Position numbers and translations under genes: made by a program. Shown one piece after another: positions 1-628 of a stretch of 628 nucleotides of DNA. Within the stretch, counting starts at the first letter, position 1. Each line of letters opens with the position of its first letter. Source of the stretch: a phage; the sequence record DQ006817.1. The stretch is one strand, 5' to 3'. Under the pieces are notes generated by a model that did no database searches, had not been told where the DNA came from, and saw only the letters and a list, made by a program, of their open reading frames with translations.

Positions 1-24
1 ATTTAACTGAGTATGAGAGGACAT
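1..24 (+). other. Partial 5' untranslated leader of a Qbeta-like ssRNA phage genome (5' end truncated by the window)
   Basis: The 24 nt upstream of the A2 start carry an in-frame TAA at 4-6 and a purine-rich Shine-Dalgarno element. From memory, the Qbeta leader is about 60 nt and begins with a G-run that is absent here, so the window likely starts inside the leader. Confidence 0.6.
15..21 (+). promoter_or_regulatory. Shine-Dalgarno / ribosome-binding site for the maturation protein gene
   Basis: Purine run GAGAGGA at 15-21 (core GAGG at 17-20) lies 3-4 nt upstream of the ATG at 25-27. The spacing is on the short side but acceptable, and the same AGAGGACAT-ATG context is what I recall for the Qbeta A2 start. 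Confidence 0.6.
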
Positions 25-628
25 ATGCCTAAATTACCACGTGGTCTGCGTTTCGGAGCCGATAATGAAATTCTTAATGATTTTCAGGAGCTCTGGTTTC
101 CAGATCTCTTTATCGAATCTTCCGACACGCACCCGTGGTACACACTGAAAGGTCGTGTCTTGAACGCCCATCTAGATGACCGTCTGCCTAATGTAGGCGG
201 TCGTCAGGTAAGGCGTACTCCACACCGTGCTACCGTCCCGATTGCCTCTTCAGGCCTTCGTCCGGTAACAACCGTTCAGTATGATCCTACAGCACTGTCG
301 TTCTTATTGAACGCCCGTGTTGATTGGGATTTCGGTAATGGTGATAGTGCGGACCTTGTCATTAATGACTTTTTGTTCCGCACCTTCGCACCTAAGGAGT
401 TCGATTTCTCGAATTCCTTAGCTCCTCGTTATACCCAGGCCTTCTCCGCTTTTAATGCCAAGTATGGCACTATGATCGGCGAAGGGCTCGAGACTATAAA
501 ATATCTCGGGCTTCTACTGCGCAGACTGCGTGAGGGTTTCCGTGCTGTGAAGCACGGCGATTTACGCGCTCTTCGTAGGGTTATCCAGTCTTACCATAAA
601 GGTAAGTGGAAACCGGCTACTGCTGGTA
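25..628 (+). CDS. A2: Maturation protein A2 of a Qbeta-like ssRNA phage (pilus-binding, RNA-binding; in Qbeta also the lysis protein that inhibits MurA); N-terminal 201 codons, 3'-partial
   Basis: ATG at 25-27 is preceded by the SD. The frame is open for 201 complete codons (25-627) plus one base, with no stop. Manual translation gives MPKLPRGLRFGADNEILNDFQELWFPDLFIESSDTHPWYTLKGRVLNAHLDDRLPNVGGRQVRRTPHRATVPIASSGLRPVTTVQYDPTALSFLLNARVDWDFGNGDSADLVINDFLFRTFAPKEFDFSNSLAPRYTQAFSAFNAKYGTMIGEGLETIKYLGLLLRRLREGFRAVKHGDLRALRRVIQSYHKGKWKPATAG, which I recognise as near-identical to the Qbeta A2 N-terminus. Recognition is from memory, not a search. Confidence 0.92.
   Translation, partial: MPKLPRGLRFGADNEILNDFQELWFPDLFIESSDTHPWYTLKGRVLNAHLDDRLPNVGGRQVRRTPHRATVPIASSGLRPVTTVQYDPTALSFLLNARVDWDFGNGDSADLVINDFLFRTFAPKEFDFSNSLAPRYTQAFSAFNAKYGTMIGEGLETIKYLGLLLRRLREGFRAVKHGDLRALRRVIQSYHKGKWKPATAG

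What the first reader, a model, noticed from the sequence alone, without database searches (positions are those of the whole stretch)
25..628. Qbeta-like A2 gene: a dual-function maturation and single-gene lysis protein
The ORF is clearly the A2 maturation protein of a Qbeta-like phage. In Qbeta, A2 is the single virion copy that binds the F pilus and the genomic RNA, and it also causes lysis by inhibiting MurA, the first committed enzyme of peptidoglycan synthesis. That makes it a protein antibiotic without a separate lysis gene. This is established biology, not a novel system, but it is the main content of the window.
Basis: partly seen in the sequence, partly recalled or inferred. Interest (0 to 1): 0.45.

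Follow-up and report, generated by a model that had tools for sequence, protein, structure and literature searches.

The report
Phage Qβ A2 maturation/lysis gene start
The window holds the last 24 bases of the 5' leader and the first 201 of 420 codons of the A2 gene of a natural strain of RNA phage Qβ, a textbook protein that both matures the virus particle and lyses the host by blocking the cell-wall enzyme MurA, so the finding is correct but ordinary.

Summary
The observation and the interpretation both hold. Window 1-628 matches nt 38-665 of Qβ genomes. The best match is strain BZ1 from Brazil (FJ483844.1) at 96.5% nt, and 18 other full-length Qβ-group genomes match at 92-94%. The ATG at 25 is the annotated A2 start and has a GAGG Shine-Dalgarno at 17-20. 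The frame stays open to the window edge, covering 201 of 420 codons. The protein is 96.5% identical to the solved Qβ A2 (PDB 5VLZ/5VM7/5MNT, E=1e-132). It differs at seven residues, all of them natural polymorphisms, and none is private to this window. dN/dS is 0.05-0.11. The window covers residues 30-120, where the literature places most MurA contacts, and residues 1-180, the reported minimal lytic fragment. It does not cover the C-terminal half, which a 2026 study also finds necessary for lysis.

A covariation-supported long-range helix pairs the Shine-Dalgarno (nt 11-21) with nt 423-434. Eight hairpins coincide with published coat-protein-contacting stem-loops. This structure has also been published.

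A small +1-frame ORF (41-148) is not conserved beyond the Qβ group and SP.

Verdict: already known, low interest.

The parts
1..24 (+). 3' part of the Qβ 5' untranslated leader (genome nt ~38-61), with the Shine-Dalgarno GAGG at 17-20, 4 nt before the AUG
   Evidence: Aligned to nt 38-61 of FJ483844.1 and to the equivalent stretch of 10 other Qβ-group genomes. G17-G20 are invariant in all 14 aligned sequences, including M11 and MX1.
25..628 (+). A2 (maturation/lysis protein) coding sequence, codons 1-201 of 420, cut by the window end
   Evidence: Translation. PDB A2 E=1.5e-132 with 194/201 identical. PF03863 E=2.5e-41. Annotated A2 CDS in all matching records. dN/dS 0.05-0.11.
112..384 (+). 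Codons 30-120: the part of the N-terminal β-region where most A2-MurA contacts are reported
   Evidence: The range is taken from PMC12856241, which quotes Cui et al. 2017. In the window 88/91 residues equal the solved Qβ A2. The differences V69A, A89T and N110D each occur in several plaque-forming isolates.
25..564 (+). Codons 1-180: the reported shortest N-terminal A2 fragment able to cause lysis
   Evidence: The range is from PMC12856241, which quotes Cui et al. 2017. It lies entirely inside the window. There are 6 differences from type Qβ, all shared with strain BZ1.
11..21 (+). 5' arm of the long-range helix that sequesters the Shine-Dalgarno sequence
   Evidence: Pairs with nt 423-434 in both the MFE fold and the RNAalifold consensus. 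It has 11 pairs, 3 of them with compensatory double changes in M11/MX1, and 92.9% of cells are paired.
423..434 (+). 3' arm (anti-Shine-Dalgarno, UCCUCGUUAUAC) of the long-range helix, inside codons 133-137
22..29 (+). Start-codon stretch, paired with nt 334-340 (codons 104-106)
   Evidence: RNAalifold consensus helix 2: 7 pairs, none with double changes, so it is supported by energy and conservation only.
334..340 (+). 3' partner of the start-codon stretch
70..82 (+). Hairpin tip = Qβ gRNA stem-loop 2 (genome 106-118), coat-protein-anchored
   Evidence: PMC8880383 Table S3, mapped onto the consensus structure.
92..104 (+). Hairpin tip = stem-loop 3 (genome 128-140), coat-protein-sandwiched
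   Evidence: PMC8880383 Table S2.
184..196 (+). Hairpin tip = stem-loop 4 (genome 220-232), coat-protein-sandwiched; the stem has 3 pairs with compensatory changes
   Evidence: PMC8880383 Table S2; (helix 9).
357..370 (+). Hairpin = stem-loop 5 (genome 393-406), operator-like
   Evidence: PMC8880383 Table S1.
400..413 (+). Hairpin = stem-loop 6 (genome 436-449), coat-protein-anchored, next to the anti-Shine-Dalgarno arm
   Evidence: PMC8880383 Table S3; (helix 18).
456..469 (+). Hairpin = stem-loop 7 (genome 492-505), operator-like
   Evidence: PMC8880383 Table S1.
492..505 (+). Hairpin tip = stem-loop 8 (genome 528-541), operator-like
   Evidence: PMC8880383 Table S1.
540..557 (+). 7-bp hairpin CCGUGCU-GUGA-AGCACGG, in which the amino-acid change R177H covaries with a synonymous change
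   Evidence: Helix 24: pair col 546:557 is C-G in 9 sequences and U-A in 4 (window, BZ1, M11, MX1); 99% of cells are paired.
592..604 (+). Hairpin = stem-loop 9 (genome 628-640), operator-like
   Evidence: PMC8880383 Table S1.

Best explanation
The window is a cDNA-sense copy of nt ~38-665 of the plus-strand RNA genome of a natural Qβ strain (Qubevirus durum, closest to the Brazilian isolate BZ1). It carries the end of the 5' leader, the ribosome-binding site and the first 201 codons of A2. A2 is the single-copy virion protein. Its surface-exposed N-terminal β-region binds the F pilus. It is also the phage's only lysis factor, because the same β-region binds the closed, UDP-GlcNAc-loaded form of MurA and blocks the first committed step of peptidoglycan synthesis, so growing cells burst at the septum. 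The same RNA is also heavily folded. The Shine-Dalgarno sequence and AUG are locked into long-range helices with sequences 310-410 nt downstream, so ribosomes can probably start A2 only on nascent strands before those partners are made, which would keep A2 dosage low and set lysis timing. Several local hairpins touch coat-protein dimers in the virion. What is shown here: identity, reading frame, purifying selection, near-identity to the solved A2, and an RNA fold with covariation. What is inferred from literature on Qβ: pilus binding, MurA inhibition, the nascent-strand translation window and coat contacts.
For: blastn gives 96.5% identity over 628/628 bases to FJ483844.1, and 19 Qβ-group genomes cover at least 80% of the window. 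The annotated A2 CDS starts at the base aligned to window nt 25. phmmer E=1.5e-132 to the A2 chains of 5VLZ/5VM7/7LHD and 5MNT with 7 differences in 201 residues. PF03863 E=2.5e-41. All 7 differences are natural polymorphisms shared with BZ1, and there are no private amino-acid changes. dN/dS is 0.05-0.11, and 80/107 variable coding columns are at third positions. Function is from PMC10610835, PMC12856241, PMC6526423 and bioRxiv 10.1101/2023.10.16.562596. RNA: MFE -263 kcal/mol with z = -11. In the consensus structure 28 pairs have double changes, against 10.0±2.2 in shuffles (0/500) and 5-12 in slid controls. The Shine-Dalgarno helix has 3 compensatory pairs. Synonymous variation is depressed in codons 1-40, 7/37 versus 73/158, p=0.003. 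Eight published coat-protein-contacting stem-loops fall on predicted hairpin tips. Published control of A-protein synthesis by a long-distance interaction is cited in PMC4615214.
Against: Nothing contradicts it, but there are limits. Only 48% of the gene is in the window, so a downstream defect cannot be excluded, and PMC12856241 reports that C-terminal deletions and substitutions abolish lysis. Lysis and MurA binding were not and cannot be tested here. Individual MurA-contact residues could not be checked, because the primary papers and coordinates are not held. Most of the covariation comes from only two divergent sequences (M11, MX1). The AUG helix (22-29 with 334-340) has no compensatory change. 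The cryo-EM RNA model was itself built with the help of earlier secondary-structure models, so the match of the eight stem-loops is not fully independent.
Confidence: 0.96

Rival explanations
1. The gene is an A2 homologue that serves only as the maturation (pilus- and RNA-binding) protein in this lineage, and lysis is done by something else, such as a separate small lysis gene or the frameshift product of the replicase gene.
For: Lysis was not tested. Three substitutions lie in the 30-120 MurA-contact range. PMC12856241 mentions an alternative 67-aa frameshift lysis product and an infectious mutant (V418K) defective in cytosolic A2 lysis.
Against: The three substitutions (A69, T89, D110) each occur in several independently isolated plaque-forming Qβ strains. 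Identity to the A2 solved in complex with MurA is 96.5%. The sites remembered as por sites (L28, D52, E125) are wild-type. No conserved alternative-frame ORF exists in the window.
Confidence: 0.02
2. A second, overlapping small gene lies in the +1 frame at nt 41-148 (35 codons from GUG, or 27 codons from AUG 65 preceded by GGAG 55-58), and it accounts for the low synonymous variation in A2 codons 1-40.
For: The ORF is open in all 12 Qβ-group sequences and in SP. It coincides with the synonymous cold zone. A GGAG lies 6 nt upstream of the internal AUG.
Against: A stop codon interrupts the homologous frame in M11, MX1, NL95 and FI. At 92-96% identity, an open 35-codon frame is expected to persist by descent alone. 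The peptide has only a 7-residue hydrophobic run and no transmembrane segment like those of known single-gene lysis proteins. The GGAG is itself paired in helix 4. RNA helices 1-6, which have covariation, cover the same stretch and explain the constraint.
Confidence: 0.02
3. The sequence is a laboratory-derived Qβ (cDNA clone, evolved line or engineered construct) rather than a natural strain.
For: Many database Qβ records are laboratory lines or evolution-experiment clones.
Against: The window is 7% diverged from laboratory Qβ (AB971354, 93.0%), with 34 synonymous against 7 non-synonymous differences. It is closest to the field isolate BZ1, and all of its amino-acid states are found in field isolates. 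There is no vector sequence. No exact match was found in viral, metagenome or genome contig collections.
Confidence: 0.03

Closest known systems
Qβ strain BZ1 A2 gene (FJ483844.1, Qubevirus durum)
   Same: The 628/628 bases align without gaps at 96.5% identity, and 198/201 amino acids are identical. The start codon, Shine-Dalgarno and leader are the same. Within the Qβ group, only BZ1 shares the lineage-specific F172 and H177.
   Different: There are 22 nucleotide differences. Three are amino-acid differences (V62I, N105D, A198T), and at each the window has the majority state. Four nucleotides are private to the window (A5 in the leader, and C159, G186 and C514, all synonymous).
Type Qβ A2, solved structures 5MNT (crystal), 5VLZ/7LHD (virion), 5VM7 (MurA complex)
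   Same: 194/201 residues are identical with no indels, so the fold and the MurA/pilus-binding β-region are the same by near-identity.
   Different: V69A, A89T, N110D, V133A, Y172F, R177H and N192K. Nucleotide identity is 93%. The C-terminal 219 residues are absent from the window.
M11 and MX1 A-proteins (group III relatives, also filed under Qubevirus durum)
   Same: The gene position is the same and the family is the same. 62-66% of amino acids are identical over the window. The long-range Shine-Dalgarno helix is kept through compensatory changes.
   Different: They are much more diverged and carry one extra codon. L28 and D52 are not conserved. The +1-frame ORF is closed.
SP / FI / NL95 A2 (Qubevirus faecium, group IV)
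   Same: These are homologous maturation proteins of phages that also lack a dedicated lysis gene (PMC12856241). The N-terminal motif MPxLPxGLRFG and the helical segment around residues 140-185 are conserved.
   Different: Identity is only 44-46%. There is a 20-30-residue insertion after residue ~190, and the proteins are longer, at 438-450 aa.
MS2-type maturation (A) protein with a separate L lysis gene
   Same: Same Pfam family (Phage_mat-A), the same role as the single-copy pilus- and RNA-binding protein, and translation limited by RNA folding of the start region (PMC4615214).
   Different: MS2 A does not lyse cells, and lysis is by the separate L protein. In MS2 the Shine-Dalgarno pairs with an upstream complementary sequence in the leader, whereas here the partner lies ~400 nt downstream. 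tblastn at E≤1e-5 finds no MS2-type hit.

Membership tests
Qβ A2 maturation/lysis protein (Qubevirus durum) | Significant sequence similarity to the Leviviricetes maturation protein family (Pfam PF03863) | tested here: met
   E=2.5e-41, 142 bits against a cut-off of 25, residues 36-201 on profile positions 20-216.
Qβ A2 maturation/lysis protein (Qubevirus durum) | Near-identity to experimentally characterised Qβ A2 | tested here: met
   194/201 identical to the 5VLZ/5VM7/5MNT chains, E=1.5e-132. 94-98.5% aa identity to 19 Qβ-group genomes.
Qβ A2 maturation/lysis protein (Qubevirus durum) | First cistron of the genome, directly after the 5' leader, with its own Shine-Dalgarno | tested here: met
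   Window 1-24 aligns to the leader and the ATG at 25 aligns to the annotated A2 start in 11 records. GAGG at 17-20 is invariant.
Qβ A2 maturation/lysis protein (Qubevirus durum) | Intact full-length ORF of ~420 codons including the C-terminal α-region (RNA and capsid binding; also needed for lysis according to PMC12856241) | not testable with these tools
   The window ends at codon 201. Exact-match scans for the parent genome found nothing.
Qβ A2 maturation/lysis protein (Qubevirus durum) | Conserved MurA-binding surface (β-region, residues ~30-120) | tested here: inconclusive
   88/91 residues are identical to the chain solved with MurA, and the three differences are natural polymorphisms of plaque-forming strains.
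Qβ A2 maturation/lysis protein (Qubevirus durum) | Causes lysis by inhibiting MurA (lysis blocked by murA rat alleles or MurA overproduction) | not testable with these tools
   This is an experimental property, established for type Qβ A2 in the literature.
Qβ A2 maturation/lysis protein (Qubevirus durum) | No separate embedded lysis gene | tested here: met
   Within the window only, the four alternative-frame ORFs of at least 20 codons are short. The best candidate (41-148) is interrupted in M11, MX1, NL95 and FI. The rest of the genome was not seen.
Qβ 5' domain RNA structure controlling A-protein synthesis (Beekwilder et al. 1996 model) | Ribosome-binding site of A2 sequestered in a long-distance base-pairing interaction conserved among relatives | tested here: met
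   nt 11-21 pair with nt 423-434, with 3 compensatory pairs in M11/MX1. The whole-structure covariation exceeds the shuffled and slid controls. I could not confirm that these are exactly the pairs of the published model, because that paper is not held.
MS2-type maturation protein (maturation only, separate L gene) | Closest relatives are Emesvirus A proteins, and the Shine-Dalgarno is paired with an upstream complementary sequence in a 5' cloverleaf | tested here: not met
   All 50 tblastn hits are Qubevirus. The Shine-Dalgarno partner lies downstream, inside the coding region.

The most novel reading that the evidence does not exclude
The 35-codon +1-frame ORF at nt 41-148 (or its 27-codon version from AUG 65, preceded by GGAG) might be a Qβ-group-specific small protein, since it is open in all 12 Qβ-group sequences and overlies the zone of depressed synonymous variation. 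Alternatively, the uneven synonymous variation (codons 1-40 and 151-170 cold, codons 41-70 saturated) might mark an RNA function beyond the known translational control and coat-protein contacts. My evidence makes both unlikely. The ORF is closed in four of five more distant relatives and lacks a membrane segment, and the covarying helices already explain the constraint.
Probability: 0.02. Interest if true: 0.45.

Novelty: already known. Interest (0 to 1): 0.07.

Why it matters
It matters little as a discovery. Qβ A2 is one of the best characterised phage proteins, and this allele adds only another natural variant. It is about 3.5% diverged from the nearest deposited genome and has no amino-acid state not already seen in other isolates. 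Its use is as a positive control for the scan, because the first-stage reader recognised gene, frame, start and function correctly from sequence alone. It also shows how densely an RNA phage packs information: protein coding, a translation-timing switch and capsid-contact hairpins share the same 600 bases, down to an amino-acid change (R177H) that is tied to a compensatory synonymous change in a hairpin.

Tried and rejected
(1) Rfam scan of the window at E≤1 gave only a 16.5-bit isrK hit on the minus strand (gathering score 50), which I treat as chance. (2) I tried to read the primary sources for the A2-MurA interface and the por mutants (Cui 2017 PMC5676892, Reed 2013 PMC3709820, Reed 2012 by PMID and by a remembered PMC id). 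None is held, and full-text searches for L28P/D52N/E125G and for L138Q found nothing. The por positions in this report are therefore from memory only. (3) ApeA preprint on the close relative FrSangria: the sensed RNA structure lies in the replicase gene (nt ~3600-3650), not in this window. (4) I considered alternative-frame ORFs as hidden genes and rejected them. (5) I searched for the parent genome with exact 38-40-mers spanning window-private bases in viral, metagenome and genome contigs and found nothing. A conserved 32-mer found one IMG/VR contig (L017), which is only 91.9% identical and so no closer than BZ1. (6) I did not run the large protein-database searches, structure prediction or fold search. 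With 96.5% identity to a solved structure they could not change the answer.

Full report
OBSERVATION. The window has an ATG at nt 25-27, preceded by GAGG at 17-20. The frame runs open for 201 codons to the window edge. The ORF lister omits it only because it leaves the window. Base 628 is the first base of codon 202.

IDENTITY. blastn against 50,697 phage records finds 34 records, all of them Qubevirus. The best is Qβ strain BZ1 (FJ483844.1, Brazil), at 96.5% over all 628 bases without gaps. Eighteen more full-length Qβ-group genomes match at 92-94%, and M11 and MX1 match at about 75% over the 3' half. In every annotated record the A2 (maturation) CDS begins at the base aligned with window nt 25, so window 1-24 is the end of the 5' leader and the window equals genome nt ~38-665. 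tblastn gives 94-98.5% amino-acid identity to Qβ-group strains, 66% to M11, 62% to MX1 and 44-46% to SP, FI and NL95. Nothing outside Qubevirus is found. Against the PDB, the translation matches the A2 chains of 5VLZ/5VM7/7LHD and 5MNT with E about 1e-132. Pfam gives PF03863 Phage_mat-A at E=2.5e-41, and PHROGs gives phrog_4286.

VARIATION. The window differs from laboratory Qβ at seven residues: V69A, A89T, N110D, V133A, Y172F, R177H and N192K. All seven are shared with BZ1, and most are shared with other field isolates. Within the Qβ group, F172 and H177 are seen only in BZ1, which places the window in that lineage. No amino-acid state is private to the window. Four nucleotides are private: A5 in the leader, and C159, G186 and C514, all synonymous. 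Selection is strongly purifying. dN/dS is 0.05-0.11 against eleven strains, and 80 of 107 variable coding columns are at third positions. This is a functional allele of a natural strain and not a decaying copy. It is also not a laboratory line, because it is 7% diverged from laboratory Qβ, mostly at synonymous sites.

FUNCTION. The function is established by others and inferred here by near-identity. A2 is the single-copy virion protein. Its N-terminal β-region is exposed and binds the F pilus, and its α-region sits inside the capsid and holds the RNA. A2 is also the lysis factor, binding the closed UDP-GlcNAc-MurA complex and blocking the first committed step of murein synthesis (PMC10610835; PMC12856241; PMC6526423; bioRxiv 10.1101/2023.10.16.562596). 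PMC12856241, quoting Cui et al. 2017, places most MurA contacts in residues 30-120 and gives 1-180 as the shortest lytic N-terminal fragment. Both ranges lie wholly inside the window (nt 112-384 and 25-564).

In residues 30-120 the window is 88/91 identical to the chain solved with MurA. The three differences (A69, T89, D110) each occur in several independently isolated plaque-forming phages, so they are very unlikely to abolish lysis. The positions I remember as por suppressor sites (L28, D52, E125; Reed et al. 2012, from memory and not verified here) are wild-type in the window. E125D is a common natural variant.

There are two limits. The same 2026 paper also reports that C-terminal deletions and substitutions abolish lysis, and that region lies outside the window.

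A SECOND LAYER: RNA STRUCTURE. The genome is RNA, so I also examined folding. Synonymous variation among 12 Qβ-group sequences is very uneven: 7/37 degenerate codons vary in codons 1-40 against 73/158 elsewhere (p=0.003), while 27/30 vary in codons 41-70. The window folds with an MFE of -263 kcal/mol, z = -11 against dinucleotide shuffles.

An RNAalifold consensus over 14 sequences, including M11 and MX1, has 200 pairs. Of these, 28 show changes on both sides, against 10.0±2.2 in column shuffles (0/500 reach it) and 5-12 when partners are slid by 1-3 columns. 95% of cells are paired. The leader and Shine-Dalgarno (nt 11-21) pair with nt 423-434 (UCCUCGUUAUAC, codons 133-137), with three compensatory pairs in M11/MX1. 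The AUG stretch (22-29) pairs with 334-340, but that helix has no compensatory change.

This fits the published idea that the A-protein start is closed by a long-distance interaction and is translated only on nascent strands (Beekwilder et al. 1996, as cited in PMC4615214). It also fits the remark that single-base changes raising A2 production overcome MurA resistance. I could not compare pair by pair with the 1996 model.

Eight stem-loops in the cryo-EM model of the packaged Qβ RNA contact coat protein and fall inside the window: four operator-like, two sandwiched and two anchored (PMC8880383 Tables S1-S3). All eight land on hairpin tips of my consensus. That RNA model was itself guided by earlier secondary-structure work, so the agreement is supportive but not fully independent.

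One neat detail concerns the hairpin at nt 540-557. There the R177H replacement (CGY to CAC) is accompanied by a synonymous C-to-U change on the other arm, giving U-A instead of C-G in the window, BZ1, M11 and MX1.

ALTERNATIVES. The +1-frame ORF at 41-148 overlaps the synonymous cold zone and is open in all Qβ-group sequences and in SP. It is closed by a stop at the homologous place in M11, MX1, NL95 and FI, it has no membrane segment, and its possible GGAG is itself base-paired. The covarying helices explain the constraint. The other small ORFs are on the minus strand of an RNA phage or are similarly unremarkable. Rfam has nothing. The ApeA-sensed structure of the relative FrSangria is in the replicase gene. 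No exact copy of the window exists in the viral, metagenome or genome contig collections, and one IMG/VR contig is a further Qβ-group genome at 91.9%.

VERDICT. More precisely, this is Qβ itself (BZ1-like lineage), covering the leader end plus A2 codons 1-201. Everything seen, including the RNA-level control, belongs to established Qβ biology. Novelty: already known. Interest: low.

Noticed in passing
L013 (NC_001890.1) 56-1321: The RefSeq record titled 'Enterobacteria phage Qbeta' carries locus tags MX1p1-4 and is only ~62% aa / ~75% nt identical to laboratory Qβ and to this window over A2. It is therefore the MX1 sequence under the Qβ name. Its A2 is called 'head maturation protease', a name with no basis in A2 biology that PHROG 4286 repeats.
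   Followed up: partly
L008 (LC710219.1) 1335-1736: The record labels the coat-protein cistron 'lys / lysis protein A2' and the read-through cistron 'capsid protein A1', which is a mislabelled annotation.
   Followed up: no
window 13-15: An AUG lies in frame with, and 12 nt upstream of, the A2 start. It exists only in strains with G at nt 15 (window, HL4-9, TW18, GIII_C, FrBurgundy, VK), and the others have AUA. It has no usable Shine-Dalgarno, and both G15 and A15 pair with U430 in the long-range helix. If used, it would add MRGH to A2.
   Followed up: partly
window 25-144, 145-234 and 475-534: Synonymous variation is strongly uneven among Qβ-group strains. It is cold in codons 1-40 (7/37) and 151-170 (3/20) and nearly saturated in codons 41-70 (27/30, p=2e-9). 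The cold zones overlap covarying helices and coat-contact hairpins. I did not explain why codons 41-70 are so free.
   Followed up: partly
window 540-557: In the hairpin CCGUGCU-GUGA-AGCACGG, the amino-acid change R177H (G554A) covaries with the synonymous change C543U. The U-A state is found in the window, BZ1, M11 and MX1, and C-G is found in the other Qβ strains.
   Followed up: yes
window 41-148 (+), internal AUG at 65: A +1-frame ORF of 35 codons (27 from AUG 65, with GGAG at 55-58) is open in all 12 Qβ-group sequences and in SP but is stopped in M11, MX1, NL95 and FI. I judge it a by-product of low divergence.
   Followed up: yes
window 397-399 (codon 125) next to 400-413 and 423-434: Codon 125 is remembered as a por site (E125G). 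It lies in the helix immediately 5' of the anti-Shine-Dalgarno arm. The natural E125D variants change only nt 399, which is the single unpaired bulge of that helix (col 402). This fits por mutations acting through RNA structure and A2 dosage, but the por positions are from memory.
   Followed up: partly
window 5: A private C-to-A change in the leader; all 11 other Qβ-group sequences, M11 and MX1 have C. It is unpaired in the consensus, but its possible partner in genome nt 1-37 lies outside the window.
   Followed up: no
L017 (IMGVR_UViG_3300019216_000421) 1-2890, minus strand: A 2.9-kb IMG/VR contig is a further Qβ-group genome fragment, 91.9% identical to the window and 92.8% identical to BZ1.
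   Followed up: partly
window 496-567 (-): Weak Rfam match to isrK (16.5 bits, gathering score 50, E=0.43) on the minus strand. I treat it as chance.
   Followed up: yes
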